Source: an uncultured Bacilli bacterium (GTDB lineage: Bacteria > Bacillota_I > Bacilli_A > RF39 > UBA660). From it: a stretch of DNA of 33,781 bases. The stretch covers positions 1-33,781 of the forward strand of contig CAKPJE010000002.1 in NCBI GenBank assembly GCA_934162555.1. The letters are read 5' to 3'. Under the pieces are notes generated by a model. That model was not told where the DNA came from. It saw only the letters and a list, made by a program, of their open reading frames with translations, and ran no database searches. This document shows positions 1,376-30,100 of this stretch, piece after piece. A program made the position numbers and the translations under genes. Within the stretch, counting starts at the first letter, position 1; every line of letters starts with the position of its first letter.

Positions 1376-3013
1376 ATGAAAAAAACAAATTTTATGAGTG
1401 GCGCTATAATAGCAACCCTCGGAATCATTGCATGTAAAATACTAGGTTTAGTATATGTAATACCATTCTATTCAATAATTGGAACAATGGGAAGAAGTTT
1501 ATATAGCTATGCCTATAGTATTTATTCAATGTTTGTAAACGTAAGTACAAGTGGAGTACCACTTGCTATATCAAAATCAGTAAGTGAATATGATACACTT
1601 GGTAATTATGAAGCCAAAGAAAGAATCTACAAACTAGGAAAAATAATAATGACAGTTATAGGATTTATATGTTTCCTATTAATGATAATATTTGCCGAAA
1701 GCTTAGCAAAATATATAATGGGTGATGCAACTGGAGGTAATAGTATAGAAGATATTGCCTATGTTATAAGGGTTGTGTCAACAGCTTTACTATTCGTGCC
1801 TTTCTTAAGTGTTGCACGAGGTTATGTTCAAGGATCAAAATATATCCAAATAAGTAGTGTAGCAAATATTATAGAACAATTAGTTAGAGTATTAGTAGTT
1901 GTTTTGGGAAGTTACTTAACAATCAAAGTATTTAATTTGGGTGTTACAAATGGTGTAGCAGTAAGTGTGTTTGGAGCAACAGTTGGTGCCATTGCAGCAA
2001 GTGTATATATACTTATAAAAATAAATAAAAATAAAAGTAAATTTAAAACAAAATCTGAAAATAGTGTTAAAGTATCTGATAAGGAATTAATTAAAAAAAT
2101 AATTGCTTATGCTGTACCATTTATTATAATAGCAATCATGAAATCTGCCTATAGTTTAGTTGATACATTCACAATTGTAAAAGGTTTAACTAAGGTGGGG
2201 TTTGATACAATCACAGCTGAAACAGCATCAAGTGTAATTGTTACATGGGGAAATAAATTTAATACTATAATTGCATCAATTTGTTTAGGTGTAGCAGTAA
2301 GTCTAATACCATCAATAAGTAGTAGTATGGTAGTAAATGATATGAAAAGTGTTAATGATAAAGTAAATCAAGCCTTTCAAATGATTATTTATTTAACACT
2401 TCCTATGGCAATTGGTATTTCCTTTCTATCAAAACCAATATGGACAGTTTTTTATGGTGTTGATGCTATAAAACTTGGAAGTGCAATGTTATCAGTTACG
2501 ATATTTACATCAATTAGTTATTCAATGTATTCAATATTGTTAGATGCAAACCAAACTATGAATAATACTCGTTTAACGTTTATAATACTTGGAGCAAGTG
2601 TATTATTAAAAATGATATTAAATACACCATTAATGTATTTGTTTGATTTAATTAATATTAAAGCATATTATGCACCAGCATTTGCAGATATATTTATTCA
2701 ATTACTAATATTTTTAATTGTTTTAATTTATTTTAGAAAAAAATATAAGTTTGCTTATAAAAAAACATTTGTTAATTCTATAAAGACAATTATATGTTCT
2801 CTAGTAATGTTAGTATGTTTATTTGGTGTTAAACTAGTAATAAATCAATATTTAATAGGTGGTAGAATGATTAGCATGATAAGCCTAATTATTTATGCAA
2901 TTATTGGTATGATTATTTACTTTGCTTTATCTTATAAAATTGGTTTAATAAATTCTATATTTGGTAAAGAATTTATAAATAGATTTTTAAAAAAATTACA
3001 TTTAAAAAAATAA
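1376..3013 (+). CDS. MOP-superfamily flippase (polysaccharide biosynthesis protein; SpoVB/YtgP/MurJ-like)
   Basis: 545-aa ORF that is hydrophobic along its whole length (about 14 helices), with GAGGT upstream. Size and topology are typical of SpoVB/MurJ-like lipid-linked oligosaccharide flippases. Confidence 0.75.
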   Translation: MKKTNFMSGAIIATLGIIACKILGLVYVIPFYSIIGTMGRSLYSYAYSIYSMFVNVSTSGVPLAISKSVSEYDTLGNYEAKERIYKLGKIIMTVIGFICFLLMIIFAESLAKYIMGDATGGNSIEDIAYVIRVVSTALLFVPFLSVARGYVQGSKYIQISSVANIIEQLVRVLVVVLGSYLTIKVFNLGVTNGVAVSVFGATVGAIAASVYILIKINKNKSKFKTKSENSVKVSDKELIKKIIAYAVPFIIIAIMKSAYSLVDTFTIVKGLTKVGFDTITAETASSVIVTWGNKFNTIIASICLGVAVSLIPSISSSMVVNDMKSVNDKVNQAFQMIIYLTLPMAIGISFLSKPIWTVFYGVDAIKLGSAMLSVTIFTSISYSMYSILLDANQTMNNTRLTFIILGASVLLKMILNTPLMYLFDLINIKAYYAPAFADIFIQLLIFLIVLIYFRKKYKFAYKKTFVNSIKTIICSLVMLVCLFGVKLVINQYLIGGRMISMISLIIYAIIGMIIYFALSYKIGLINSIFGKEFINRFLKKLHLKK

Positions 3014-3022
3014 TTATTAACT

Positions 3023-3050
3023 CATTTCAAATTTGAAATGGGTTTTATTT
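3023..3050 (+). terminator. Candidate intrinsic terminator after the flippase gene
   Basis: Perfect 18-nt palindrome CATTTCAAATTTGAAATG (3023-3040; 7-bp stem, 4-nt loop) followed by GGTTTTATTT. Confidence 0.45.
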
Positions 3051-3055
3051 AAGTC

Positions 3056-3084
3056 TTGTATTTTTGTCTTTAATATTGTAAGAT
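3056..3084 (+). promoter_or_regulatory. Candidate sigma-A promoter of LRR gene 1 (TTGTAT-17-TAAGAT)
   Basis: TTGTAT at 3056-3061, 17-nt spacer, TAAGAT at 3079-3084. The leader to the GAGG RBS (3097-3100) would be short. The element is duplicated at 5202-5230. Confidence 0.35.
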
Positions 3085-3106
3085 ATATATAGAATAGAGG
3101 TAGGTT

Positions 3107-5176
3107 ATGAATAAATGGAAGTTATTTGTGCTTTTAGGTCTAATACTATTAATAATAGGGGTAATGGGTTTATTTTTTAGACAAGATGAAGTAGTAGAAA
3201 ATATAGAGAGTATAGAATTTAAACTTGATAATTCTAATAGGAAACAAACCAATTTTATACTTATAGATAAAGATGCAGGAAAATTTAATGTAGTTATAGA
3301 TACAACGGGGTTAAACTTTGATATGGATTGTACAATTACAGTTGACTCATCTAATAAAAATTTAAAGTTTTATACTGATAAAAACTATTCTAATGAACTT
3401 TCAAAATATAATTATATTCAAAATAATGAGAAAAAAACAATAACAATATACTACCATGGGAATAATATAACAGATGAACAAGTAAGTATAAGTGTTGAAA
3501 ATGAGGTTAAGCATAAAAAGATTCAAACAGAAATAGAGAGTATAGAATTTGAACTTGATGATGACGATAAGATACAAACAAAGTCTATGGTTATAGATAA
3601 AAATAGGGGTAAATTTAATGTTGTTATTAAAAGAACGGATTTAACCTTTGATACAGATTGTACAATTACAATTGATTCATCTGATAAAAATTTAAAGTTT
3701 TATACTGATAAAAACTACAAGAGTAAACTTTCAGAATATAATTTTACTCAAAATAATGATGAACAAACAATAACAATATACTATCGAGGAGATAATAAAA
3801 CAAGTAATGTTCAAGTAAATATAAATGTTGAAAATAAAAATAAAAACGAAATTATAAGAGATGCTAAAATGATGGAGCAAAAAGAAAATTTTGCCTTTTG
3901 GACTAAAGAATATAGAAAAAATATAAAACATATAATTTTTGAAAAGGGTATTAGTAATGTACCTAAAGATTGTACTGAAAAAAATAAATGTTTTGATATT
4001 AGTTCAAGAGCATCAAAGAATAAAGTATATGCCTATATAATTGATAATGATTTGCACATAGCAAGTGAGTATGAAATTCATGCTCCATCCAATAGTTCAT
4101 ATATGTTTAAAGATTTTGAAAAAGTAGAAAGTATTGATTTTTCTAACTTTAATACAATGGATGTAAAAAATATGAAGGGAATGTTTGAAAATTGTTCATC
4201 CTTAATAAGCTTGGATTTGAAAAGTTTTGATACCTCAAACGTAACTAATATGGGTAGTATGTTTAGTTGGTGTTGGCAATTAACGAGTATAGATTTAAGT
4301 AACTTTAATACCTCAAAAGTAACAAGAATGTATATGATGTTTTTTAAGTGTTCATCATTAACAAACCTAGATTTAAGCAGTTTTAATACATCAAATGTAA
4401 CAGATATGGGTGTTATGTTTTTTGACTGCAGATCTTTGACGAGCTTGAATTTGAACAGTTTTAACACCTCAAACGTAACTGACATGAGCTACATGTTTGA
4501 GAGTTGCGAAAAACTATTAAATTTAAACTTAAGTAGTTTTGATACAACGAACGTAACAACTATGTACTGCATGTTTATTCGGTGTTCATCTTTAACAAAC
4601 CTAGATTTAAGTAGTTTTAATACATCAAAAGTAACAAATATGGATGGTATGTTTAGGGATTGTTCATCTCTAACAAGTTTGAATATCAGTAATTTTAATA
4701 CCTCAAATGTAACAAATATGGATGGCATGTTTGATGATTGTTCATCTTTAACAACCTTAAATTTAAGTAGTTTTGATACAACAAATGTAATAGATATGGG
4801 AGCAATGTTTGCTGGCTGCTCATCCTTAACAAGTTTGGATTTAAGTAATTTTGATACATCAAATGTAACAGATATGGGATACATGTTTTATAACTGTGAA
4901 AATCTAATCAATTTAAAGATAAATTTTGATGCTTCGAAAGTAACAGATATGCGTAGTATGTTTTCTGGATGTGAAAGAATAATTACTCAAATTAACATAA
5001 CAAATGATAGTAACCTAGAATATAATGGTATATTTGAAAATACTGCCACTTATGAAGGATCAAGTATAATATTAGGCTATACTGATGAAACATATGAAAC
5101 AGTAATTAAAATGAAAGGAAACAATGAAAGAATAATACTCAAAAAAATAGAGACTGTTGAAAAAACAAATTATTAA
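3107..5176 (+). CDS. BspA-family / DUF285-type leucine-rich-repeat surface protein, paralogue 1
   Basis: 689 aa. The N-terminus is a hydrophobic signal/anchor (LFVLLGLILLIIGVMGLFF). Two copies of a roughly 100-aa module follow (IESIEF.LD...GKFNVVI...DCTIT.DS..KNLKFYTDKNY...TITIYY). The C-terminal half has 11 repeats of 26 aa (consensus LDLSNFNTSNVTxMxxMFxxCSSLTS), the repeat known from Pfam DUF285 proteins. Confidence 0.9.
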   Translation: MNKWKLFVLLGLILLIIGVMGLFFRQDEVVENIESIEFKLDNSNRKQTNFILIDKDAGKFNVVIDTTGLNFDMDCTITVDSSNKNLKFYTDKNYSNELSKYNYIQNNEKKTITIYYHGNNITDEQVSISVENEVKHKKIQTEIESIEFELDDDDKIQTKSMVIDKNRGKFNVVIKRTDLTFDTDCTITIDSSDKNLKFYTDKNYKSKLSEYNFTQNNDEQTITIYYRGDNKTSNVQVNINVENKNKNEIIRDAKMMEQKENFAFWTKEYRKNIKHIIFEKGISNVPKDCTEKNKCFDISSRASKNKVYAYIIDNDLHIASEYEIHAPSNSSYMFKDFEKVESIDFSNFNTMDVKNMKGMFENCSSLISLDLKSFDTSNVTNMGSMFSWCWQLTSIDLSNFNTSKVTRMYMMFFKCSSLTNLDLSSFNTSNVTDMGVMFFDCRSLTSLNLNSFNTSNVTDMSYMFESCEKLLNLNLSSFDTTNVTTMYCMFIRCSSLTNLDLSSFNTSKVTNMDGMFRDCSSLTSLNISNFNTSNVTNMDGMFDDCSSLTTLNLSSFDTTNVIDMGAMFAGCSSLTSLDLSNFDTSNVTDMGYMFYNCENLINLKINFDASKVTDMRSMFSGCERIITQINITNDSNLEYNGIFENTATYEGSSIILGYTDETYETVIKMKGNNERIILKKIETVEKTNY
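4130..4984 (+). repeat. Coding array of 11 x 78-bp (26-codon) DUF285-type LRR units
   Basis: The motif TACCTCAAA recurs at 4231 and 4309 (78-bp period). Protein repeats run from SIDFSNFNTMDVKNMKGMFENCSSLI to NLKINFDASKVTDMRSMFSGCERII. Confidence 0.9.
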
Positions 5177-5196
5177 TTTATCAACAGCCTCTTTTT
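5150..5196 (+). terminator. Candidate terminator overlapping the 3' end of LRR gene 1
   Basis: GAGACTGTTGA (5150-5160) pairs with TCAACAGCCTC (5181-5191) with one mismatch and a 20-nt loop, followed by TTTTT (5192-5196). Confidence 0.5.
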
Positions 5197-5201
5197 AAGT
5201 C

Positions 5202-5230
5202 TTGTATTTTTGCCTTTAATATTGTAAGAT
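5202..5230 (+). promoter_or_regulatory. Candidate sigma-A promoter of LRR gene 2 (duplicate of 3056-3084)
   Basis: TTGTAT at 5202-5207, 17 nt, TAAGAT at 5225-5230. One spacer base differs from copy 1. Confidence 0.35.
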
Positions 5231-5252
5231 ATATATAGAATAGAGGTAGGTT

Positions 5253-7280
5253 ATGAATAAATGGAAGTTATTTGTGCTTTTAGGTCTAATACTATTAATA
5301 ATAGGGGTAATGGGTTTATTTTTTAGACAAGATGAAGTAGTAGAAAATATAGAGAGTATAGAATTTAAACTTGATAATTCTAATAGGAAACAAACCAATT
5401 TTATACTTATAGATAAAGATGCAGGAAAATTTAATGTAGTTATAGATACAACGGGGTTAAACTTTGATATGGATTGTACAATTACAGTTGACTCATCTAA
5501 TAAAAATTTAAAGTTTTATACTGATAAAAACTATTCTAATGAACTTTCAAAATATAATTATATTCAAAATAATGAGAAAAAAACAATAACAATATACTAC
5601 CATGGGAATAATATAACAGATGAACAAGTAAGTATAAATGTCGAAAATGAAGTTAAGCATAAAAATGAGATTCAAATAGAAATAGAGAGTATAGAGTTTG
5701 AACTTGATGATTCTGATAGAAGACAAACAAAGTCTATAGTTATAGATAGAGATATAGGTGAATTTAATGTTGTTATAGATACAACAGGATTGAACTTCGA
5801 TATGGATTGTACAATTACAATTGATTCACCTGATTATAAATTAGAGTTTTATACTGATGAAAACTATAAGAATGAATTTTCAGGATATAATTATATTCAA
5901 AATAATGAGAAAAAAACAATAACAATATACTACATATATAGATACTACTATAGTGATGATAATAAACTAAATAATATTCAAGTAGATATAAATGTTGAAA
6001 ATAAAAATAAAAACGAAATTATAAGAGATGCTAAAATGATGGAGCAAAAAGAAAATTTTGCCTTTTGGACTAAAGAATATAGAAAAAATATAAAACATAT
6101 AATTTTTGAAAAGGGTATAAGTAATATACCTAAAGATTGTACTGAAAAAAATAAATGTTTTGATATTAGTTCAAGTGCGTCAAAAAATAAAGTATATGCC
6201 TATATAATCAATAATGATTTGCACATAGCAAGTGAGTATGAAATCTATGCCCCATCTAATAGTTCATATATGTTTAAAGATTTTGAAAAAGTAGAAAGTA
6301 TTGATTTTTCTAACTTTAATACAATGGATGTAACATCTATGAGTGCTATGTTTCAAAGTTGTTCATCTTTAACAAACTTAGATTTAAGTAATTTCAATAC
6401 TTCAAAAGTAACAGATATGGGTGCAATGTTTAAAGATTGTTCATCATTAATAAGCTTAGACTTAAGTAATTTTGACACATCAAATGTTATATATTTTGGA
6501 TATAATTTACCATTTAGAGCAGGAATGCATGGTATGTTTTCTGGGTGCTTATCATTAAAAAGTTTAAATGTAAGTAGTTTTAATACCGCGAATGCAGTTA
6601 ATATGCAAGGCATGTTTTCTGATTGTTCATCCCTTACGAGTTTAAACTTGAGTAGTTTTGATACTTTAAAAGTAACAGCTATAGATTTTATGTTCGCAGA
6701 TTGTTCATCTTTAACAAAATTAGACTTAAGTAATTTTAATACTTCAAAAGTAACAACTATGTACGGCGTGTTTAGTAATTGTTCATCATTGACAAGTTTA
6801 AATGTAAGTAATTTTAACACCTCAAAAGTAACACATATGTATATGATGTTTTTTGGTTGTTCATCTTTAACAAGTTTAGATTTAAGTAGTTTTGATACGT
6901 CAAATGCACACAATATGTCATATATGTTTTCTAATTGCTCTTCATTAACCAGCTTGGATTTAAGTAATTTTAATACTTCAAAAGTAATAGATATGGAAAA
7001 CATGTTTCAAAATTGTGAAAACCTAACCAATTTAAAAATAAACTTCGATACCTCAAAAGTAGAAGTATCAGATATGAAAGGTATGTTTTCTGGATGTAAA
7101 AAAATAATTACTCAAATTAATATAATAAATTATGCTTATTGGGCTGATGATAGTGCATTCAAAAATGCTGCTATTTATGAAGGATCAAGTATAATATTAG
7201 GCTATACTGATGAAACATATGAAACAGTAATTAAAATGAAAGGTAACAATGAAAGAATAATACTCAAAAAAATAAACTAG
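5253..7280 (+). CDS. BspA-family / DUF285-type leucine-rich-repeat surface protein, paralogue 2
   Basis: 675 aa. The first 128 residues are identical to paralogue 1 and the architecture is the same. There are 10 LRR units, one of which has a roughly 10-aa insertion (IYFGYNLPFRAGMH). The C-terminal YEGSSIILGYTDETYETVIKMKGNNERIILKKI is shared with paralogue 1. Confidence 0.9.
   Translation: MNKWKLFVLLGLILLIIGVMGLFFRQDEVVENIESIEFKLDNSNRKQTNFILIDKDAGKFNVVIDTTGLNFDMDCTITVDSSNKNLKFYTDKNYSNELSKYNYIQNNEKKTITIYYHGNNITDEQVSINVENEVKHKNEIQIEIESIEFELDDSDRRQTKSIVIDRDIGEFNVVIDTTGLNFDMDCTITIDSPDYKLEFYTDENYKNEFSGYNYIQNNEKKTITIYYIYRYYYSDDNKLNNIQVDINVENKNKNEIIRDAKMMEQKENFAFWTKEYRKNIKHIIFEKGISNIPKDCTEKNKCFDISSSASKNKVYAYIINNDLHIASEYEIYAPSNSSYMFKDFEKVESIDFSNFNTMDVTSMSAMFQSCSSLTNLDLSNFNTSKVTDMGAMFKDCSSLISLDLSNFDTSNVIYFGYNLPFRAGMHGMFSGCLSLKSLNVSSFNTANAVNMQGMFSDCSSLTSLNLSSFDTLKVTAIDFMFADCSSLTKLDLSNFNTSKVTTMYGVFSNCSSLTSLNVSNFNTSKVTHMYMMFFGCSSLTSLDLSSFDTSNAHNMSYMFSNCSSLTSLDLSNFNTSKVIDMENMFQNCENLTNLKINFDTSKVEVSDMKGMFSGCKKIITQINIINYAYWADDSAFKNAAIYEGSSIILGYTDETYETVIKMKGNNERIILKKIN
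6297..7110 (+). repeat. Coding array of 10 DUF285-type LRR units (78-bp period)
   Basis: Protein repeats run from SIDFSNFNTMDVTSMSAMFQSCSSLT to NLKINFDTSKVEVSDMKGMFSGCKKII. Confidence 0.9.
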
Positions 7281-8326
7281 TTTTTACTAGTTTTTATTTT
7301 ACCCAAAACAAACATAATCAAAACATAAACAAGAAACAAAACACCAATATATGGATATATATTATACATAAATTCATTAAAAATAGTTAAAGATCTAAAA
7401 CAAGAAAAAGAAATAATTAATACTAATACACCAATAATAACATAATTAAATTTAAATTTTAACTTTTCCTTAACAACAAACGTACTAAAACTCATTAAAG
7501 TAAACAAACCAAAAATCCACTGAATAAACAAAATATTTTCAATTCTAGTTAAAAAATTAAGAAAATTAATCCTTCGCAAAACAATATATTCAGGATATTG
7601 ATATAGCTTAGCTAAGTCTATCCCAAGAGAACCAATCGTAAAAATAATCATTGTAAGAGATAAGACAAGATAAATAAAATAAGAAATAAAAGTACTCCTA
7701 TTCTTAAAATTAATAACCTTATTCTTAGGAATCAATAGAAGCAAAAATAAAGAACAAACATTAATAAAAAATATTCTAACAGCGCCTAATATAGGCTTAT
7801 TTAAACCATACTCTAAAAAAGGAAGTAAATTATCAAACTTGAATTCCGTTAATAAGCCAAAAGCAGAAACAAAAAACAAAAAGAAATTAATAAATAAAAA
7901 TATAGTTGCAGTCTTTGCAAGAACCGAAAGATCCTTTGAACCAACATAAATAATAAGTAAACAAAAAATTAAACCAATAAAAATAGGGTGGGTTTCCGAA
8001 AGAAACTGTGAAACAATAAAATTAGTTAAATTAAAAAACTGAACAGAAGAAACAAGCAAAGCAAATAAAACAACTAACAAATTAGGAATAAAAGGATATT
8101 TAAATAATTTTTTATTCTTCTCAAAAATATTCAAATCAGGCTCATAATTAAACAAAAAATTAAAAACAAAAATAAATAAACAAGAAAATATTGAACTAAT
8201 AATAATACTTAAATAAGAATCAACACCAGCTTCCTTGATAACAACATAAATACCCTCACCATAAGTTGTTGTAAATAACAAAATAATCATTAAACTAATC
8301 AAATTAAAATTACTTATTTTTTTCAT
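7277..8326 (-). CDS. Spore germination receptor B subunit (GerAB/GerKB-type permease-like membrane protein)
   Basis: 349-aa polytopic membrane protein (about 10 helices). It is the last gene of a three-gene unit with GerA- and GerC-type proteins and overlaps the upstream gene by 17 nt. Confidence 0.75.
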   Translation of the reverse strand: MKKISNFNLISLMIILLFTTTYGEGIYVVIKEAGVDSYLSIIISSIFSCLFIFVFNFLFNYEPDLNIFEKNKKLFKYPFIPNLLVVLFALLVSSVQFFNLTNFIVSQFLSETHPIFIGLIFCLLIIYVGSKDLSVLAKTATIFLFINFFLFFVSAFGLLTEFKFDNLLPFLEYGLNKPILGAVRIFFINVCSLFLLLLIPKNKVINFKNRSTFISYFIYLVLSLTMIIFTIGSLGIDLAKLYQYPEYIVLRRINFLNFLTRIENILFIQWIFGLFTLMSFSTFVVKEKLKFKFNYVIIGVLVLIISFSCFRSLTIFNEFMYNIYPYIGVLFLVYVLIMFVLGKIKTSKN

Positions 8327-9473
8327 CCTTAATTACCTGTAAACTATTACCTTTCTCAAAAATATCCAAATAAACATCAACATTAATTTTCAAATTATTA
8401 TAAAAACTATCATAATCAGTTATTTTCTTATAATAACCATTATTTTTTTTATAATAAAGATTTCTAAAATAAAATATATCAGAATTATATTCCTTTGATA
8501 GCCCAATAAGATTAACAATATTCCTCTTAATTTCCTCACTACCTTGTTTCTCAATCTGCTTTATACCCGTATCCTTAGAAATATCATAATCACACATAAC
8601 CGAAGTTAAATTACCCTTTGTCTTAATCTTTAAATCAATCTCCGGCTTATTCTTTTTAATCTTAACATCAGCACTACTATCAATAATCTCAAAAGTAACA
8701 TATTTATTCTTAGAACACTCAAAACTTATAATAGTAGACTTAAGCTGATTCTTAATCAAATTATAATAAATAGTTTCCTTCTTATCCAAATAAGATATAA
8801 GCTTATTATCCTTAAAAATAGCAGTTTCCTCAATAGAAAGTAAAGACTCTGGATTAGAAGACTCTAAATTATCCTTCTTATCACCACTACCACCCAAAAC
8901 AGTAATAGCAGGCAAAAGAATTTCCTTTGTCTTACTAACATACTCATCAGCTAAATCATCAAAAGTAGTAAGAACACTACCACTCAAAAACTGATTATTA
9001 TTCTCAATCAAATTCCTAATCCCAACTGAATTAATAGGATAAACCTGTGTCAAAACACCCAAAACATCAGCAGGAGTATTATTCTTACTTACAAAAACAT
9101 AAAAATCATTCCTAAGTTCAACCTCTCTAAACCAAAAATCAATAATATCCTCAATCCCATCTCTAGCGATATTTTCATCAATAACCAAAATTTGCATATG
9201 ATTTGTATAAGCCTTCTTAGGAAGCTTAGTAAGTATACCCCTAGCAGCTTCATGAATAGTCTTATCAGTATAAGAATAGTTTTTAAACCTAACTGGACTA
9301 GAAGAATTATTTGAATCACCCTGTTTTTGAGTATCAGCAATTTGAACAGTAACCTTATATTCATCATTAACCTTTTCAAGCCCACAACCAACAGTAATAG
9401 CAACCTTATCAAGTTCTTTATAATTGCACCCACATAAACATAAAATAAGAACAAACAAAATAATTTTTTTCAT
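8310..9473 (-). CDS. Spore germination receptor C subunit (Ger(x)C-family lipoprotein)
   Basis: The N-terminus MKKIILFVLILCLCGCNYKELDKVAITVGCGLEK has a lipobox Cys followed by the motif typical of GerAC/GerKC. Length is 387 aa, and the start overlaps the stop of the A subunit (TAATG). Confidence 0.8.
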   Translation of the reverse strand: MKKIILFVLILCLCGCNYKELDKVAITVGCGLEKVNDEYKVTVQIADTQKQGDSNNSSSPVRFKNYSYTDKTIHEAARGILTKLPKKAYTNHMQILVIDENIARDGIEDIIDFWFREVELRNDFYVFVSKNNTPADVLGVLTQVYPINSVGIRNLIENNNQFLSGSVLTTFDDLADEYVSKTKEILLPAITVLGGSGDKKDNLESSNPESLLSIEETAIFKDNKLISYLDKKETIYYNLIKNQLKSTIISFECSKNKYVTFEIIDSSADVKIKKNKPEIDLKIKTKGNLTSVMCDYDISKDTGIKQIEKQGSEEIKRNIVNLIGLSKEYNSDIFYFRNLYYKKNNGYYKKITDYDSFYNNLKINVDVYLDIFEKGNSLQVIKDEKNK

Positions 9474-10876
9474 TATTCACCTCGATATCTATTATTTGAT
9501 AAAACCTTCATTCGCTTGTTATTTTTTGGCAATTTAACAAAAGCATTCTTAAAACCATTCTTATCAAAAGGCTCAATAGGAGAAAGAAAAGAAATACCAA
9601 AAGTCTCAATACTATTTGCACGTATCATAAAAAATATAAAAATAACAACAATCCCAATTATTCCCATACAAGAACCACCAACCATAAAAATAAGACGATA
9701 AGTTCTAATAGAAGTTGTAAACTCAGGCTCAGAAAAAGGAAGAGAAGAAATAGCTGTAACAGCAACGACAATAATCATAATAGGGGAAACAATCCCTGCC
9801 GCAACCGCTGCATCTCCTAAAATCAAAGCCCCAACAATTGATAAAGCAGAACCACTAGAATTAGGAACCCTATATTCACTTTCCTTAATAATCTCAAAAG
9901 CTAAAATCATCATAAAAGCTTCAATAAAAGCCGGAAAAGGAACTCCGTTTCGCTGAACAGCAAAACTAATAAGTAAATCAGTAGGTATTATCTCCTGATT
10001 ATAAGTTATCATCGCAACATAAATAGCTGGCGTTAAAATAGAAATAAAGAAAGCCAAATATTTTATTATTCTTGTAATTGAAACATTAATTGAATTACCA
10101 TACCAATCCTCAGGAGCCTTAAAAAAATCAACAAACAATCCAGGAACAATTAAAGCAAACTCGCTATTATCAACAACAATAACAACCTTTCCTCTAAGCA
10201 AAGCTTTTGCAATTCTATCAGGCCTTTCGGTAGTAGTAATCGTAGGTAAAATAGACTTAATACCCTTTTCTAAATGCTTCTTTAAATCATCAGAAGTAAT
10301 AATCCCATCAATATCAATCGAATTAATCTTATCCTCAATTTTTTTTATTAAATCATCCTTAACAATCCCATTAACATAACAAATACCAATCTTTGTTTTC
10401 GTATATCTACCTTTTTCTAACTCCTTAATCCACAAATCATTAGACTTAATCCTTTTCTTTATCAAACCAATATTAGTCTGGTAATCCTCAATCAAAGCAT
10501 CCTTCGCACCCCTAATAGCATTTTCTGTAGTAGGAGAGGAAACAGACCTATTTAAGTTGCCCTTTGTCTCAAAAGCAAGACCAGTATTTGCAAATAAAAT
10601 AACCGTAAAACCATTGTTTATAAAAGTACAAAAATCATCATAATTTTTGACTTCCTTATATTTACAACTATCCAAATTATTTTTAATATTTTTAATATCC
10701 TTAATATTATCTAAACTCCTAATAATAAAATCACTAACCTTATCATTAGAAATTAAACTATCATTAAATATAATATATATAGTATTTTTTTTTAATTTCT
10801 TTTCCCTATAAACAATAAAAGAATTATTATTAGTATCTTTTTTAAACCTCTCAATAATTAATAAAGGATCAAACAT
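9473..10876 (-). CDS. Spore germination receptor A subunit (GerAA/GerKA family)
   Basis: 467 aa with a soluble N-terminal domain and a C-terminal membrane block (FPAFIEAFMMILAFEIIKESEYRVPNSSGSALSIVGALILGDAAVAAGIVSP), as in the GerA/SpoVAF family. AGGTGA RBS at 10881-10886. Confidence 0.85.
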   Translation of the reverse strand: MFDPLLIIERFKKDTNNNSFIVYREKKLKKNTIYIIFNDSLISNDKVSDFIIRSLDNIKDIKNIKNNLDSCKYKEVKNYDDFCTFINNGFTVILFANTGLAFETKGNLNRSVSSPTTENAIRGAKDALIEDYQTNIGLIKKRIKSNDLWIKELEKGRYTKTKIGICYVNGIVKDDLIKKIEDKINSIDIDGIITSDDLKKHLEKGIKSILPTITTTERPDRIAKALLRGKVVIVVDNSEFALIVPGLFVDFFKAPEDWYGNSINVSITRIIKYLAFFISILTPAIYVAMITYNQEIIPTDLLISFAVQRNGVPFPAFIEAFMMILAFEIIKESEYRVPNSSGSALSIVGALILGDAAVAAGIVSPIMIIVVAVTAISSLPFSEPEFTTSIRTYRLIFMVGGSCMGIIGIVVIFIFFMIRANSIETFGISFLSPIEPFDKNGFKNAFVKLPKNNKRMKVLSNNRYRGE

Positions 10877-15570: not shown

Positions 15571-16056
15571 ATGAATAGCAAAACTAAAAAAATAATTATG
15601 TACTGTTCAATAATAGGCCTTGTAATGATAGCAACAGGTACATTTGCATATTTTAAAAGTGGTGATGCATATAATGTTAAAGGACAAGTTATAAGCTGGT
15701 CATTTAAAGCAGAAAGTAAAGGAGATACAGAATCATTTACAAAAGCATTAGGAGACATTGCCCCTGGTTCAACGGGCTCATTTGTAGTTAATTTAGATCC
15801 AACTGGTTCAACAACCAATGTTGAATGTTCAATAACACCAAATATTGCCAGTTCATTAGCAGGCATGAAATTATATAGTGATTCTGCTAAAACTACAGAA
15901 ATTACTGCTGATAATCCACTTAAAGTTAATTTAACAGCTAGAAGTTCAGCCCAAAATGTAACAGTTTATTGGTTATGGGAATATGATACCGGATTACTAA
16001 CAAATCAAAGTATTTCATTTTCTATAAATGTCGTTGGAAAGCAAGTTGCATCATAG
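15571..16056 (+). CDS. Small secreted protein with a SipW-cognate (TasA/CalY-type) signal peptide
   Basis: The N-terminus MNSKTKKIIMYCSIIGLVMIATGTFAYFKSGD matches the GGGTFAYFSD-type SipW-dependent signal of TasA/CalY/camelysin. The mature part contains GDIAPGSTGSFVVNLDPTGST, resembling the TasA-family PGD...F...N.GS pattern. Confidence 0.8.
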   Translation: MNSKTKKIIMYCSIIGLVMIATGTFAYFKSGDAYNVKGQVISWSFKAESKGDTESFTKALGDIAPGSTGSFVVNLDPTGSTTNVECSITPNIASSLAGMKLYSDSAKTTEITADNPLKVNLTARSSAQNVTVYWLWEYDTGLLTNQSISFSINVVGKQVAS

Positions 16057-25406: not shown

Positions 25407-25587
25407 TGTATAATTCAAGTAAGATATGAAAGGTTTGTTGATAACATGAAACCACTAATACATACATACATGTATTACTAAATAAAAAAATAAAAATAAT
25501 TTTTGTTGATAACTATATTGGGAACAGGGAATATATAGATACTGGTCCTCTTTTTGGTGGTTTAAAAAATATAGAAGGAGGAAGTAT

Positions 25588-27366
25588 ATGAAGAATAGTA
25601 AAAAAATAATTTTAGTTATGGTATCTATAATATGTATAGTAATTTTATTGGTTGGATCAATTGCTTATTATAGGATAGTGGTAAATGGAAGTATAAAGGG
25701 AAGTACTGGTAATGCAGTATTTGTTTTAAGAGATAGCGATAATAGTGTATGGGATAATAAGGTAATAGATTTAGGTAAAATAAATCCTGGAGATAGTGGA
25801 GAGTTTACTGTTACGATGGATGCTAGTGGATCTAGTGTAGATATGTATGCAACATTAGAGATAGAAAGGACAAATTTACCAACTAACTTGAAATTTTATA
25901 CAACATCAGATCATAAGAGTGAATTACACAAGTACTATAGTTTCTTAGAAAATAATGTAACGAATAGTGAAACATTAACTATATATTGGTATTGGAATCC
26001 ATATATAAGTGATGAAGAAGATAATAAATTTATAAATGTATCTAATTTAGAAGCAAATGTTAGGGTAAGTGCAGTACAAATAAGTGAATATGCAATGATG
26101 AAGAATGGTAATGGTGTTACAAGTGATAGTAGATTATATTTTTGGAAAGATACTTATAGACCATATATAAGAACAATAACATTTGGTAATGATTTGAGTA
26201 ATTTACCAAGTAGTTGTACAGAAGAAAACTTATGTTTTGATGTATCAGAAAGTAATAGTAAAAAGAAAGTATATGCTTATTTAATAGATAGTGGATTAAA
26301 AATGAATAATCAATTTACTTTATACAATTTGTATATAGTAAGTGAAGCACCAATATTTGCACCATCTGACTGTTCATTATTCTTTGCGGGATTTAATAGT
26401 TTAGTTAGTATAAATTATAATGATAATTTTAATACATCAAAAGTAACAAATATGAGTTATATGTTTTTACCAATCATATCTGTAGATTGGAGTAATGTTG
26501 TTACTTTAACATCAAGTATTAAAAATGTTAAACCATCATTTTTAAATAATAAAAGGAATGATATTAAAACAGAATTGCTTGCACTACCTCCAAGCGGTGA
26601 TATGATAATCTTTGGAAATTACTACTCCTCACTGACTGAACTAAACCTTAGCTCATTTAATACAAAAAATGTAGTAAATATGAAATATATGTTTACAAAA
26701 AATGATACTCTAATCAGTTTGAATTTAAGTAATTTTAATACAATTAATGTTGAGAATTTAGAGGGGTTATTTTATGAGTGCATAGGTATTAGCAAATTGA
26801 ATTTAAAAAGTTTTAATACATCAAAAACAATGAATATGCAAATGATGTTTTCTGGTTGTCAATCATTAACGAATTTAGGCATAAGTAGTTTTAATACATC
26901 AAATGTAACAAATATGCGTAGGATGTTTGATGGTTGCGAATCCTTAACAAAATTAGATTTAAGTAGTTTTAATACTTTAAAAGTAACAGATATGAGTAGT
27001 ATGTTTTCTGATTGTTCATCCTTAACAAGTCTAGATTTAGGTAATTTTAATACATCGAATGTAACAAATATGAATATGATGTTTGTGGGTTGCGAATCCT
27101 TGACAAATATAGATTTAAGTAATTTTAATACATCGAAAGTAACAGATATGGGTTATATGTTTTCTGACTGTACTAAAATTCAATTAAAAATTACAGTTAT
27201 GAATCCAAATATGACATCTTATGATAGTATATTGGATGGAGAAGCACTTAACGATACAAATGCTTATGCTATAATAAGTTATACAGAGAGTACACAATCT
27301 ATTGCTACAGCTATGAAAAATACTTGTAATAATTCATCTAAAATAACATTGAAACAAATTTCATAA
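25588..27366 (+). CDS. BspA-family / DUF285-type LRR surface protein, paralogue 3, with a TasA-like N-terminal module
   Basis: GGAGGA RBS upstream. Signal/anchor is KKIILVMVSIICIVILLVGSIAYY. One N-terminal module (LGKINPGDSGEFTVTMDASGSS...NLKFYTTSDHKS...TLTIYWYWNPY) aligns with the protein encoded at 15571-16056. The linker YFWKDTYRPYIRTITFGNDLSNLPSSCTEENLCFDVSESNSKKKVYAYLID resembles paralogues 1 and 2. About 9 LRR units of 26 aa follow. Confidence 0.9.
   Translation: MKNSKKIILVMVSIICIVILLVGSIAYYRIVVNGSIKGSTGNAVFVLRDSDNSVWDNKVIDLGKINPGDSGEFTVTMDASGSSVDMYATLEIERTNLPTNLKFYTTSDHKSELHKYYSFLENNVTNSETLTIYWYWNPYISDEEDNKFINVSNLEANVRVSAVQISEYAMMKNGNGVTSDSRLYFWKDTYRPYIRTITFGNDLSNLPSSCTEENLCFDVSESNSKKKVYAYLIDSGLKMNNQFTLYNLYIVSEAPIFAPSDCSLFFAGFNSLVSINYNDNFNTSKVTNMSYMFLPIISVDWSNVVTLTSSIKNVKPSFLNNKRNDIKTELLALPPSGDMIIFGNYYSSLTELNLSSFNTKNVVNMKYMFTKNDTLISLNLSNFNTINVENLEGLFYECIGISKLNLKSFNTSKTMNMQMMFSGCQSLTNLGISSFNTSNVTNMRRMFDGCESLTKLDLSSFNTLKVTDMSSMFSDCSSLTSLDLGNFNTSNVTNMNMMFVGCESLTNIDLSNFNTSKVTDMGYMFSDCTKIQLKITVMNPNMTSYDSILDGEALNDTNAYAIISYTESTQSIATAMKNTCNNSSKITLKQIS
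26408..27185 (+). repeat. Coding DUF285-type LRR array (78-bp period) interrupted by a roughly 50-codon non-repeat insertion
   Basis: Units include LNLSSFNTKNVVNMKYMFTKNDTLIS, LGISSFNTSNVTNMRRMFDGCESLTK and LDLSSFNTLKVTDMSSMFSDCSSLTS. The insertion LPIISVDWSNVVTLTSSIKNVKPSFLNNKRNDIKTELLALPPSGDMIIFGNYY lies at about 26467-26630. Confidence 0.85.
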
Positions 27367-29167: not shown

Positions 29168-29191
29168 TTATATAGTGATGAGGTGATAGTT

Positions 29192-30100
29192 ATGTTATAT
29201 GGACCAGGAGGACCAGAACCACATGGTGGTTATGGTCATGAACCACATGGACCACACGGATGTTGTCATGGACCACACGGACCAGGTGGATGGTATGGTA
29301 GACCTTGGGGTCCACCACCAGGACCATGGGGTCCACCACCAGGACCATGGGGTCCACCACCAGGACCATGGGGTCCACCACCAAGATTTTTCTACGGTGC
29401 TGTCAGCAAAAGTAATAAAATTGATTATATGAAGACTATAGATTATGATGGTGAAGGTAAAAAATATTATAGTGCTTGTGCTTGTAAAAATTGTACAGAA
29501 CCATTTGCTGTAGATTATCGTTTAATTAAAAATCTTACATTTATTTGCACTAGTGATTTAGGGTTTAAAAATGGTACATTTTATAGTGATAATAAAATAG
29601 ATGGATACTTTAAATTTGAAATTGTATGTCCATCGTGTGATAAAGCAACACCATTCTTTATAAAAGTACGTAAGTTACCAAAATTTGTTTTAGATTATTA
29701 TTTAAAAGAAACTAAAAGTGTCGAATATACTATTAAATATTCATATGATAACTTCTATGCACCATTTAATGTAACATATGATACATGTGGTACAACAATA
29801 AAAGGATTATATGAAAAAATTAATTCATTACATTTTGATGCAATTGATCATGATGATAAAAAAATACCAACTTCTTTAGAAAAAATGAATGATGCAGTTA
29901 CGAAAGAATATACTAAGAAAAGTGGTAAAAATGTTACTATAAATATGGACTCTGTTCATGAAAATTTAAAAAAAGAAATAGAAGTAAATAAATTAAAATT
30001 GTTAAAATATTTAATTAAAAGTAATGGTTTATTAGGATTTAAGGAATATGTAGGCGCAAGTAATCAAACCAAAAATGAACTTAAATTGCTTTCGAGATAG
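29192..30100 (+). CDS. Hypothetical protein: Gly/Pro/His/Trp-rich low-complexity N-terminus plus a C-terminal domain with two CxxC pairs
   Basis: The ATG at 29192 follows GAGGTGA; the ORF-track GTG at 29183 is less likely. The N-terminus is MLYGPGGPEPHGGYGHEPHGPHGCCHGPHGPGGWYGRPWGPPPGPWGPPPGPWGPPPGPWGPPPRFF. CACKNC and CPSC motifs follow, suggesting a zinc ribbon. I recognise no family. Confidence 0.7.
   Translation: MLYGPGGPEPHGGYGHEPHGPHGCCHGPHGPGGWYGRPWGPPPGPWGPPPGPWGPPPGPWGPPPRFFYGAVSKSNKIDYMKTIDYDGEGKKYYSACACKNCTEPFAVDYRLIKNLTFICTSDLGFKNGTFYSDNKIDGYFKFEIVCPSCDKATPFFIKVRKLPKFVLDYYLKETKSVEYTIKYSYDNFYAPFNVTYDTCGTTIKGLYEKINSLHFDAIDHDDKKIPTSLEKMNDAVTKEYTKKSGKNVTINMDSVHENLKKEIEVNKLKLLKYLIKSNGLLGFKEYVGASNQTKNELKLLSR
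29306..29383 (+). repeat. Perfect 21-bp tandem repeat, 3.7 copies (TGGGGTCCACCACCAGGACCA), in frame (WGPPPGP)
   Basis: Units at 29306-29326, 29327-29347 and 29348-29368 are identical, and a partial fourth unit runs to 29383. Confidence 0.95.

What the first reader, a model, noticed from the sequence alone, without database searches (positions are those of the whole stretch)
3048..7280. 2.15-kb head-to-tail duplication of an LRR surface-protein gene with block-wise (mosaic) identity
Two complete units, each with promoter, RBS and gene, sit in tandem.
- Block A (3048-3491 versus 5194-5637) differs at one base. It covers the promoter, the leader and the first 128 codons.
- Block B (about 3811-4166 versus 5978-6333) is roughly 95 % identical.
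- Block C (5051-5149 versus 7176-7274) has one mismatch.
- Between these blocks, the second N-terminal module and the whole LRR array are strongly diverged, and the LRR count differs (11 versus 10 units).

Constant ends with variable exposed repeats are the footprint expected from gene conversion or recombination between paralogues of a surface antigen or adhesin. The 440 bp of identity is also a ready substrate for RecA-mediated gain or loss of a unit, or for formation of chimeric genes. Only unit 1 has its own terminator (5150-5196). Unit 2 runs straight into the convergent ger operon.
Basis: seen in the sequence. Interest (0 to 1): 0.7.

Follow-up and report, generated by a model that had tools for sequence, protein, structure and literature searches.

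The report
Tandem mosaic LRR surface-protein genes
Two neighbouring copies of a repeat-rich surface-protein gene in an uncultured gut bacterium keep their ends alike by swapping DNA while their binding repeats diverge, a familiar way for bacteria to vary their surface, so the locus is real and tidy but not a new kind of system.

Summary
Genes 3107-5176 (689 aa) and 5253-7280 (675 aa) are tandem paralogues. Both are PARCEL/DUF285 ("BspA-like") LRR surface proteins with 11 and 10 units.

- **Blocks.** Block A has 1 mismatch in 444 nt, block B is 96.6 % identical, and block C has 1 mismatch in 99 nt.
- **Synonymous divergence.** It runs from 0 (block A) to 0.77 (LRR array), so the mosaic is not just protein-level constraint.
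- **Other assemblies of the species.** There are two-unit alleles, one-unit alleles and a chimeric one-unit allele. One short u2-to-u1 conversion tract was recovered identically by two assemblers. Module 2 and the LRR arrays behave as old orthologous lineages.

Caveat: the 424-nt perfect identity in this window, and the patch differences among near-clonal assemblies, always involve a whole SNP cluster matching the partner copy. Recent gene conversion would do that, and so would bubble collapse in low-coverage short-read assembly. Only long reads can decide.

No cassette, invertase or reverse-transcriptase machinery was seen. Adjacent PARCEL in-paralogues are already described in Mollicutes, and Listeria inlC2/inlD/inlH is a close analogue. 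Verdict: new member of a known kind, moderate interest.

The parts
1376..3013 (+). Upstream flank: MurJ/Polysacc_synt-type flippase gene, the conserved left anchor of the locus
   Evidence: ORF. Pfam families in the gene tables of related contigs. dS is 0.023 between strains whose PARCEL and ger genes differ deeply.
3019..3044 (+). Terminator-like hairpin of the upstream gene. Unit 1 begins in its T-tail.
   Evidence: Terminator scan. Fold -11.1 kcal/mol, z = -4.4.
3048..3491 (+). Block A, copy 1: 59-nt upstream region with RBS (AGAGGT 3096-3101), TM anchor and module 1 up to codon 128
   Evidence: 1 mismatch in 444 nt against 5194-5637. dS = 0 over 72.7 synonymous sites. Sub-segment 3129-3307 carries 13 SNPs in six other near-clonal assemblies.
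3107..5176 (+). Gene 1 (unit 1), 689 aa. TM helix aa 3-22, beta-sandwich modules aa 35-134 and 145-244, N-cap, 11 PARCEL/LRR units (aa 347-631), C-cap.
   Evidence: ORF. TIGR02167 348 bits and PF03382 230 bits. LRR count. AlphaFold2 model, mean pLDDT 82.
3492..3826 (+). Module 2 of gene 1, the diverged segment (75 of 356 differences from gene 2, with indels)
   Evidence: Orthology signal 47:0 in the quartet test. In L001 this segment equals the unit-2 version exactly.
3811..4166 (+). Block B, copy 1: end of module 2 plus the N-terminal cap of the LRR solenoid
   Evidence: 96.6 % identical to 5978-6333. dS 0.14. The single-unit allele L004 is an A/B mosaic with a breakpoint between 4043 and 4078.
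4145..4999 (+). LRR array of gene 1, 11 units of 26 aa (the last has 25)
   Evidence: dS 0.77 against gene 2. Positions 9, 11, 12, 15 and 16 of the unit have pN about equal to pS, while scaffold positions have pN far below pS.
5051..5149 (+). Block C, copy 1: C-terminal cap
   Evidence: 1 mismatch in 99 nt against 7176-7274. 0 of 99 in the L060 and L070 pairs.
5150..5197 (+). Unit-1-specific tail (ETVEKTNY, then stop) inside a hairpin followed by a T-run: intrinsic-terminator candidate and the junction between the units
   Evidence: Fold -12.2 kcal/mol, z = -4.2. No homology to the sequence after gene 2.
5194..5637 (+). Block A, copy 2
5253..7280 (+). Gene 2 (unit 2), 675 aa, same architecture, 10 LRR units with a 10-aa insertion in unit 3
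   Evidence: ORF. TIGR02167 311 bits and PF03382 178 bits.. The identical protein occurs on Hadza and Nepal gut-metagenome contigs.
5978..6333 (+). Block B, copy 2
7176..7274 (+). Block C, copy 2. Homology ends where the convergent ger gene begins.
7277..8326 (-). Right flank: convergent GerAB-type spore permease. Its stop overlaps the stop of gene 2. First gene of a ger operon that is itself deeply polymorphic.
   Evidence: ORF. Pfam Spore_permease. 73 % aa identity and dS 0.61 between strain classes.
25588..27366 (+). Third, distant PARCEL paralogue in the same window (592 aa, 6 clear LRR units)
   Evidence: ORF. PF03382 159 bits..

Best explanation
**What it is.** The locus holds two co-oriented paralogous genes for membrane-anchored PARCEL/DUF285 ("BspA-like") leucine-rich-repeat surface proteins. 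The host is an uncultured, low-GC, spore-forming gut bacterium. Its EF-G is 98 % identical to that of 'Firmicutes bacterium CAG:884'.

**Protein layout.** Each protein has an N-terminal transmembrane helix, two beta-sandwich modules, and a capped solenoid of 10-11 repeats of 26 residues.

**History.** The duplication is older than the radiation of the sampled strains. Module 2 and the LRR arrays of unit 1 and unit 2 form separate orthologous lineages.

**Exchange.** The two direct repeats recombine through their shared blocks.
- Short non-reciprocal patches (gene conversion) homogenise the 5' 0.44 kb, which covers the upstream region, the anchor and module 1.
- Unequal or allelic crossovers in the shared blocks give one-unit, two-unit and chimeric alleles.
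- These crossovers also re-assort PARCEL alleles against the neighbouring ger-operon alleles.

**Variation.** Within the repeats, five positions per unit (9, 11, 12, 15, 16) vary about as fast as silent sites, on an otherwise conserved scaffold.

**Shown versus inferred.** The sequence patterns, the conversion tract and the allele series are shown. Three things are inferred: dependence on general RecA-type homologous recombination, surface exposure, and a ligand- or host-facing role for the variable positions.
For: **Family.**
- TIGR02167 scores 348 and 311 bits (cut-off 30). PF03382 scores 230 and 178 bits (cut-off 25).
- The AlphaFold2 model shows helix 3-22, two beta modules, and a solenoid with pLDDT above 90.

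**Mosaic at silent sites, window pair.** dS is 0 for the anchor plus module 1, 0.26 for module 2, 0.14 for the N-cap, 0.78 for the LRR array and 0.05 for the C-cap.

**The same pattern in pairs that cannot be collapse artefacts.**
- L070 (SPAdes, coverage 12) and L071 (MEGAHIT) are identical. Their dS values are 0.17, 0.28, 0.06, 0.81 and 0, with chi-square p = 2e-11.
- L060 gives the same pattern.

**Concerted-evolution test.** In 3308-3491, 6 sites group paralogues of the same genome and 0 group orthologues. Elsewhere orthology wins 47:0, 6:0, 88:0 and 96:0.

**Conversion tract.** L070 unit 1 carries unit-2-type bases at 3404 and at 3454-3460. The tract is bounded by unit-1-type bases at 3367 and 3471.

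**Allele series at the same site between murJ and ger.**
- Two units: window, L001, L003, L060, L069, L070/71, L072.
- One unit: L004-L007 (at least four samples), L073, L074.
- One-unit chimera: L075, with the unit-1 5' end and a unit-2 body.
- The single-unit allele L004 has a mosaic block B with an internal breakpoint.

**Repeat variability.**

**Precedent.** Adjacent PARCEL in-paralogues, and tandem paralogues at sites that are empty in a sister genome, are described in PMC2996958.
Against: - All comparison sequences are short-read metagenome assemblies. No isolate or long-read genome was found.
- The most striking patches are whole SNP clusters that equal the partner copy: window 3129-3307, L001 3492-3826, and L003 and L069 3952-4090. 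Assembler bubble collapse would produce exactly this.
- One-unit alleles, and the L072 pair (identical over about 2.1 kb), depend on how an assembler treated a loop.
- Positive selection on the variable positions is not demonstrated. pN is about equal to pS, not clearly above it.
- Expression, localisation and function are untested.
Confidence: 0.75

Rival explanations
1. Partial assembly artefact. The two genes are real, but the 424-nt perfect identity of block A in this contig was created when a short-read metagenome assembler merged paralogous bubbles at low coverage. The same would apply to the strain-to-strain patch differences among near-clonal assemblies. On this view the true pair in this clone is unit 1 = [B, A, A] and unit 2 = [A, B, B] for segments 3129-3307, 3492-3826 and 3952-4090.
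For: - The window, L001, L003 and L069 have flanks that are 99.97-100 % identical. They differ only inside the gene pair.
- All six patches replace an entire SNP cluster with the exact sequence of the partner copy in the same assembly. None is partial and none spans two clusters.
- L003 and L069 have the two low-divergence clusters merged but not the 21 %-diverged module 2 between them.
- Coverages are about 4-12x, as given in the contig names.
- Four MEGAHIT assemblies of this background keep 13 SNPs in unit 1. Three of them (L063, L065, L066) break 141 nt into the shared 3308-3491 block, and L060 runs through the locus.
- L002, the same strain as the window, breaks at 3415.
- Assembler bubble-removal limits are quoted from my own knowledge of SPAdes and were not tested here.
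Against: - Unit 1 with the A-type 3129-3307 segment was recovered in three assemblies: the window, L068 and L069. L068 and L069 come from different samples and give the same protein P0002.
- Real conversion between tandem repeats with several hundred nt of identity is expected to be as fast as, or faster than, point mutation over 10 kb (general knowledge).
- A genuine short conversion tract and genuine mosaics exist in robustly assembled alleles.
- Even on this rival reading, block A would still be 97 % identical with a 184-nt perfect core, and the dS mosaic remains (pair L003_u1 / L001_u2).
Confidence: 0.4
2. No exchange at all. A single duplication was followed by purifying selection on the ends and caps, and by fast or adaptive divergence of module 2 and the LRR arrays.
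For: Blocks B and C encode the solenoid caps. These are conserved at protein level across the family (consensus). dN/dS is low in block B of the window pair, at 0.10.
Against: - Selection on protein sequence does not explain a greater than 10-fold range in synonymous divergence, with zero silent changes in 72.7 sites.
- It does not explain the identity of the non-coding 59 nt upstream.
- It does not explain the 6:0 paralogue-sharing sites.
- It does not explain the bounded unit-2 patch in L070 unit 1.
Confidence: 0.08
3. A programmed antigenic-variation system. Candidates are an expression site plus a silent cassette as in pilE/pilS or vlsE, an invertase shufflon, or a diversity-generating retroelement.
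For: Several different patchworks sit on near-identical flanks. The gene product is a repeat-rich surface protein.
Against: - Both units are complete. Each has the same upstream region, RBS, start codon and anchor, so neither is a silent cassette.
- The ORFs of the 33.8-kb window show no recombinase, invertase or reverse transcriptase. The Pfam-annotated neighbours on related contigs show none either.
- Inverted repeats in the region are weak, at 70-73 %.
- LRR arrays are identical among the near-clonal assemblies.
Confidence: 0.03
4. The whole second copy is an assembly artefact, for example a duplicated contig end or a strain mixture stitched in tandem.
For: Short-read contigs often break in this repeat.
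Against: - The unit-1-specific tail and terminator joined to the shared upstream region (5150-5252) is assembled identically in many samples by three pipelines.
- The two bodies differ by dS 0.77.
- Each unit has its own orthologues in other strains.
Confidence: 0.02

Closest known systems
PARCEL repeat proteins (TIGR02167 'Liste_lipo_26', Pfam DUF285; named 'BspA family leucine-rich repeat surface protein' by NCBI). Described by Roske et al. 2010, BMC Genomics 11:430 (PMC2996958).
   Same: - The same 25-26-residue repeat, far above both curated cut-offs.
- Membrane targeting.
- Sequence variation concentrated at hydrophilic positions on a hydrophobic scaffold.
- Stop-free antisense frames through the arrays.
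- The paper already reports adjacent in-paralogues (MCAP_0720/0721). It also reports single or tandem PARCEL ORFs among housekeeping genes at sites that are empty in a sister genome.
   Different: - The host is a spore-forming gut Bacillota lineage, not a Mollicute or Listeria.
- The anchor is an uncleaved-looking TM helix with no lipobox cysteine, not a lipoprotein signal.
- Two beta-sandwich modules without a Pfam family precede the array.
- The block-wise concerted evolution and the population allele series are documented here, not in that paper.
- My whole-unit dyad-symmetry test was not significant.
Listeria monocytogenes internalin cluster inlC2-inlD-inlE versus inlG-inlH-inlE
   Same: Tandem LRR surface-protein paralogues whose shared sequence allows recombination. 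That recombination removes a unit and leaves a chimera: inlH is the 5' end of inlC2 fused to the 3' end of inlD (PMC3977354). L075 here is the 5' end of unit 1 fused to a unit-2 body, as a single unit.
   Different: - Different LRR class: the internalin repeat (22 residues, from my own knowledge) against the 26-residue PARCEL unit.
- Different anchoring: neither protein sequence here contains an LPXTG motif or GW modules.
- No role in invasion is known for the proteins here.
TLR1/TLR6 tandem paralogues in mammals (gene conversion limits divergence; PMC2077338) and plant NLR clusters such as RPP8 (PMC6771003)
   Same: Tandem LRR-receptor paralogues in which conversion homogenises part of the gene while the ligand-binding LRR part diverges. 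This comparison rests on titles and abstracts seen.
   Different: Eukaryotic immune receptors. The resemblance is one of evolutionary process only.

Membership tests
PARCEL / TIGR02167 repeat surface protein (DUF285, 'BspA-like') | Tandem 25-26-residue repeats matching the TIGR02167 HMM above its curated cut-off | tested here: met
   348 bits with 11 stretches and 311 bits with 9 stretches, against a cut-off of 30. Manual count gives 11 and 10 units.
PARCEL / TIGR02167 repeat surface protein (DUF285, 'BspA-like') | Pfam DUF285 (PF03382) above the gathering score | tested here: met
   230 and 178 bits against a cut-off of 25.
PARCEL / TIGR02167 repeat surface protein (DUF285, 'BspA-like') | Membrane-targeting sequence (lipoprotein signal in the characterised Mollicute and Listeria members) | tested here: inconclusive
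   An N-terminal hydrophobic helix, aa 3-22, is predicted. There is no Cys, so no lipobox, in the first 70 residues (sequence). Targeting is therefore likely, but by a TM anchor or an uncharacterised signal. No signal-peptide predictor was available.
PARCEL / TIGR02167 repeat surface protein (DUF285, 'BspA-like') | Dyad symmetry of the repeat-coding DNA | tested here: inconclusive
   The consensus 78-nt unit matched its reverse complement at 40 of 78 positions. The codon-shuffle null is 38.8 +/- 2.4, so the result is not significant. However, antisense frames stay open for 131-216 codons in a 25 % GC genome. The paper's motif-based method was not reproduced.
Concerted evolution (gene conversion) between tandem paralogues | Synonymous divergence is heterogeneous along the pair | tested here: met
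   dS ranges from 0 to 0.78 in the window pair (p = 8e-14) and from 0 to 0.81 in the robust L070 pair (p = 2e-11).
Concerted evolution (gene conversion) between tandem paralogues | Paralogues in one genome share variants that separate them from their orthologues in another genome | tested here: met
   6:0 in 3308-3491. This holds only for that block. The rest of the gene gives orthology signal.
Concerted evolution (gene conversion) between tandem paralogues | A bounded non-reciprocal tract in a reliably assembled genome | tested here: met
   L070/L071 unit 1 carries unit-2-type bases at 3404 and 3454-3460, flanked by unit-1-type bases at 3367 and 3471. The sequence is identical in a SPAdes and a MEGAHIT assembly.
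Concerted evolution (gene conversion) between tandem paralogues | The recent conversion claimed for this window (block A identity) is verified at read level | not testable with these tools
   No reads or long-read assemblies were available. The JGI metagenome scans found nothing, and the GTDB species representatives hold no close relative.
Programmed antigenic variation (silent cassettes, invertase shufflon, DGR) | Promoterless or truncated donor cassettes, or a dedicated recombinase or reverse transcriptase with its target repeats | tested here: not met
   Both units are full length with identical upstream regions. The window ORFs and the Pfam tables of related contigs show no recombinase or reverse transcriptase. 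No strong inverted repeats were found.
Listeria internalins | Internalin-type LRR with cap and inter-repeat domain, and LPXTG, GW or secreted C-terminus | tested here: not met
   No internalin family appeared in the Pfam or NCBIfam hits. The repeat period is 26 residues. The C-terminus is a short cap with no LPXTG. The comparison is an analogy of process only.

The most novel reading that the evidence does not exclude
The patch differences among near-clonal assemblies are real. There are at least five exchange events between the two units, on backgrounds that differ by at most 1 SNP in 6-17 kb of flank. Ordinary homologous recombination between the tandem copies would then outrun point mutation. 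The pair would act as a machinery-free contingency locus that individualises the surface of a gut commensal from host to host. It sits directly next to a germinant-receptor operon that is also swapped between deep allele classes, and the two together would form one small 'strain-identity island'.
Probability: 0.2. Interest if true: 0.55.

Novelty: new member of a known kind. Interest (0 to 1): 0.35.

Why it matters
The locus is a clean, well-delimited example of how an uncultured gut bacterium varies a surface LRR protein. The anchor and solenoid caps are held constant, the ligand-facing repeats drift, and shared blocks serve as crossover points for gain, loss and chimeras.

It extends PARCEL tandem-paralogue behaviour from Mollicutes to a spore-forming gut lineage. 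It also offers a marker locus for strain tracking.

It is a practical warning as well. Perfect identity blocks between paralogues in short-read metagenome contigs cannot be taken at face value.

It does not reveal a new mechanism.

Tried and rejected
- **GTDB species representatives**, searched with gene 1. Only distant LRR-region relatives were found (at most 57 % identity). There was no genome of this species, so no isolate or long-read check.
- **JGI metagenome contigs**, two exact-pattern scans with the conserved 5' 61-mer and a block C 44-mer. Both gave zero hits.
- **Exact look-up of gene 1's protein**. It is not on record elsewhere, so this allele is unique to the window contig.
- **Whole-unit dyad-symmetry test**. 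Not significant.
- **Foldseek of the full model against the PDB**. Only weak multi-domain hits came back (ColG tandem collagen-binding domains, TLR3, botulinum HA70; TM 0.1-0.3). These are leads on the beta-sandwich modules, not identifications.
- **Pfam and NCBIfam on the N-terminal modules**. Nothing reached a cut-off.
- **Taxonomy look-up of 'Firmicutes bacterium CAG:884'**. It failed on name format.
- **Exchange between module 1 and module 2 within a gene**. Two short stretches of gene-2 module 2 look module-1-like. That is too little to claim.
- **Simple recent derivation of the one-unit alleles from the two-unit alleles.** Rejected for L004 and L074, because their ger flanks belong to a different deep allele class or sub-allele.
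Full report
**1. Observation**

The window holds two co-oriented ORFs, 3107-5176 (689 aa) and 5253-7280 (675 aa).
- Block A has 1 mismatch in 444 nt (3067 T/C), with a 424-nt exact run.
- Block B is 96.6 % identical.
- Block C has 1 mismatch in 99 nt.
- Homology ends abruptly on both sides, at 38 % and 34 % identity just outside.
- Module 2 differs at 75 of 356 positions and has two indels.
- The LRR arrays are about 73 % identical and have 11 and 10 units.

Unit 1 ends in a hairpin plus T-run (5150-5197; -12.2 kcal/mol, z = -4.2). Gene 2's stop overlaps the stop of a convergent Spore_permease gene, and only a weak A/U hairpin lies there. The shared 59-nt upstream region has a good RBS. No sigma-70 consensus site was found in it, so separate promoters are inferred, not shown.

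**2. What the genes are**

Both proteins score far above the curated cut-offs of TIGR02167 (PARCEL repeat surface protein; 348 and 311 bits) and Pfam DUF285 (230 and 178 bits). NCBI names relatives 'BspA family leucine-rich repeat surface protein'.

An AlphaFold2 model (mean pLDDT 82) has three parts:
- an N-terminal helix, aa 3-22;
- two beta-sandwich modules, aa 35-134 and 145-244, with pLDDT about 70-79 and no Pfam family;
- a capped solenoid with pLDDT above 90.

Blocks B and C are the N- and C-caps of the solenoid. A third, distant paralogue lies at 25588-27366.

The flanks are a MurJ-type flippase gene on one side. On the other side lie a GerAB/GerAC/GerAA operon and then rpsL-rpsG-fusA-tuf. 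GC content is about 25 %. EF-G is 98 % identical to that of 'Firmicutes bacterium CAG:884'. The window is a whole 33,781-nt metagenome contig (P0001).

**3. Is the mosaic more than constraint?**

Nei-Gojobori estimates for the window pair give the following dS values:

| Segment | dS |
|---|---|
| Anchor + module 1 (72.7 silent sites) | 0 |
| Module 2 | 0.26 |
| N-cap | 0.14 |
| LRR array | 0.78 |
| Pre-cap | 0.5 |
| C-cap | 0.05 |

The heterogeneity is significant (p = 8e-14). Silent-site heterogeneity and an identical non-coding leader cannot come from protein-level selection alone.

**4. Related loci**

Exact-protein look-ups, some anchored on the MurJ protein, recovered the same site from many human gut metagenomes assembled by three pipelines.

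Alleles found:
- **Two units:** window, L001, L003, L060, L069, L070 (identical to L071), and L072.
- **One unit:** L004-L007 (at least four samples), L073, and L074.
- **One-unit chimera:** L075. Its 3129-3307 segment equals L070 unit 1 (0 of 179 differences). Its block B equals L070 unit 2 (0 of 340), and module 2 is close to it (4 of 353).
- **Three units:** none seen.

Pairs that cannot be collapse artefacts show the same silent-site mosaic. These are L070/L071 (identical from SPAdes at 12x and from MEGAHIT) and L060. Their dS is 0.13-0.17, 0.28-0.33, 0.06-0.10, 0.76-0.81 and 0.

A quartet test (window or L003/L001 pair against the L070 pair) gives 6:0 sites for 'paralogues of one genome together' in 3308-3491. 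Everywhere else orthology wins: 47:0 in module 2, 6:0 in block B, and 184:0 in the LRR arrays. The duplication therefore predates the strain radiation, and demonstrable exchange is confined to the 5' 0.44 kb.

L070 unit 1 carries unit-2-type bases at 3404 and 3454-3460, between unit-1-type bases at 3367 and 3471. This is a conversion tract of 57-103 nt.

The single-copy allele L004 has a block B that switches from unit-2-type to unit-1-type between 4043 and 4078.

**5. The caveat**

The window, L001, L003 and L069 have essentially identical flanks: at most 1 SNP in 7.7 kb, and 0 in 5.8 kb. They differ in which of three SNP clusters has been made identical to the partner copy. The clusters are 3129-3307, 3492-3826 and 3952-4090.

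| Assembly | Unit 1 | Unit 2 |
|---|---|---|
| Window | [A, A, A] | [A, B, B] |
| L069 | [A, A, B] | [A, B, B] |
| L001 | [B, B, A] | [A, B, B] |
| L003 | [B, A, A] | [B, B, A] |

Every patch is a whole cluster. None is partial, and none joins adjacent clusters. Recent conversion would look like this. So would bubble merging by a short-read metagenome assembler at 4-12x coverage.

Points favouring collapse:
- Four MEGAHIT assemblies of this background keep the 13 SNPs in unit 1 (L060, L063, L065, L066).
- Three of them (L063, L065, L066) break 141 nt into the shared 3308-3491 block.
- L002, the same strain as the window, breaks at 3415.

Points favouring real conversion:
- The A-type unit 1 appears in three assemblies, two of them from different samples with the identical protein P0002.
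- Recombination between tandem repeats is intrinsically fast.

I put the odds that the window's 424-nt identity is real at roughly even. If it is not real, block A is still 97 % identical with a 184-nt perfect core, and the conclusions of sections 3 and 4 stand (last pair).

**6. Mechanism**

The best reading is ordinary homologous recombination between two direct repeats.
- Short non-reciprocal patches homogenise the 5' block.
- Crossovers in shared blocks delete or add a unit and build chimeras.
- The same blocks serve as breakpoints for allelic exchange between strains.

L074 illustrates the last point. It has upstream DNA and a unit identical to L070 unit 1 (apart from one base in block C and the gene's end), but a different ger allele.

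Within the solenoid, positions 9, 11, 12, 15 and 16 of each 26-residue unit have pN about equal to pS. Scaffold positions have pN far below pS. This fits an exposed, freely varying face, but it does not prove positive selection.

Nothing suggests programmed variation. Both units are complete, no recombinase or reverse transcriptase lies nearby, and inverted repeats are weak.

**7. Comparison with what is known**

- Roske et al. 2010 (PMC2996958) defined PARCELs. They already describe adjacent in-paralogues, and tandem PARCEL ORFs among housekeeping genes at sites that are empty in a sister genome.
- Listeria inlH is a recombinant of the tandem LRR genes inlC2 and inlD (PMC3977354). It parallels L075.
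- TLR1/TLR6 show the same process in animals.

The membership tests for PARCEL are met on the repeat and domain models. They are inconclusive for lipoprotein-type targeting, because there is a TM helix and no lipobox. They are also inconclusive for dyad symmetry, although long antisense ORFs are present.

**8. Verdict**

Exchange is demonstrated only for the 5' block, and the perfect identity in this particular contig may be assembly-made. This is a new member of a known kind, with interest 0.35.

Noticed in passing
window 7277-10400 (minus strand: 7277-8326, 8310-9473, 9473-10876): The germinant-receptor operon directly after gene 2 exists in two deep allele classes within otherwise near-identical genomes. 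Between the window type and the L004/L070/L008 type, GerAB is 73 % and GerAC 72 % aa-identical (dS 0.6-0.9). The murJ-like gene has dS 0.023, and rpsL onward is about identical. The break lies exactly at the end of gene 2. Divergence decays inside gerAA.
   Followed up: partly
window 25588-27366 (+) and 15571-16056 (+): A third PARCEL paralogue (592 aa). By eye, its N-terminal module resembles the modules of genes 1 and 2, and also a small 161-aa ORF. That small ORF has a sub-threshold SipW-cognate signal hit (TIGR04088, E = 0.026, 14.7 bits against a cut-off of 19).
   Followed up: partly
L060 2019-3752; L001 2162-2268; window 25502-25611: One strain (L060) has an extra 577-aa PARCEL gene between the epimerase gene and the 209-aa gene, upstream of the window's left end. 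L001 lacks it but keeps about 110 nt that are 88 % identical to the region upstream of the window's third paralogue. This is a second PARCEL presence/absence polymorphism.
   Followed up: no
window 4078-4485, 4489-4884, 6353-7003 (minus strand): Stop-free antisense frames of 135, 131 and 216 codons run through both LRR arrays in a 25 % GC genome. They encode their own 26-residue repeat (VTFEVLKLLKSKLVKDEQ...). This is the overlapping-ORF property discussed for PARCELs. There is no evidence that they are genes.
   Followed up: partly
L072 2759-7145 versus L073 5001-7145: One assembly (coverage 3.9) shows two units identical over about 2.1 kb that differ only in the 3' tail. Another sample has the same gene as a single unit. 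This is either a very recent duplication or loss, or a difference in how the assembler handled a loop.
   Followed up: partly
window 3415 and 3448 (contig ends of L002 and of L063/L065/L066): Several independent short-read contigs end inside the shared 3308-3491 block, 77 or 141 nt into it. This marks the block as an unresolved repeat in those assemblies.
   Followed up: yes
window 29183-30100 (+): An ORF with a Pro/Gly/His-rich N-terminus containing GPWGPPP repeats. It has no Pfam hit.
   Followed up: no
window 5668-5932 versus 3189-3453: Module 2 of gene 2 contains two short stretches (about 35 and 45 nt) that match module 1 better than they match module 2 of gene 1. This hints at exchange between the two modules inside a gene. 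The evidence is too little to claim it.
   Followed up: partly
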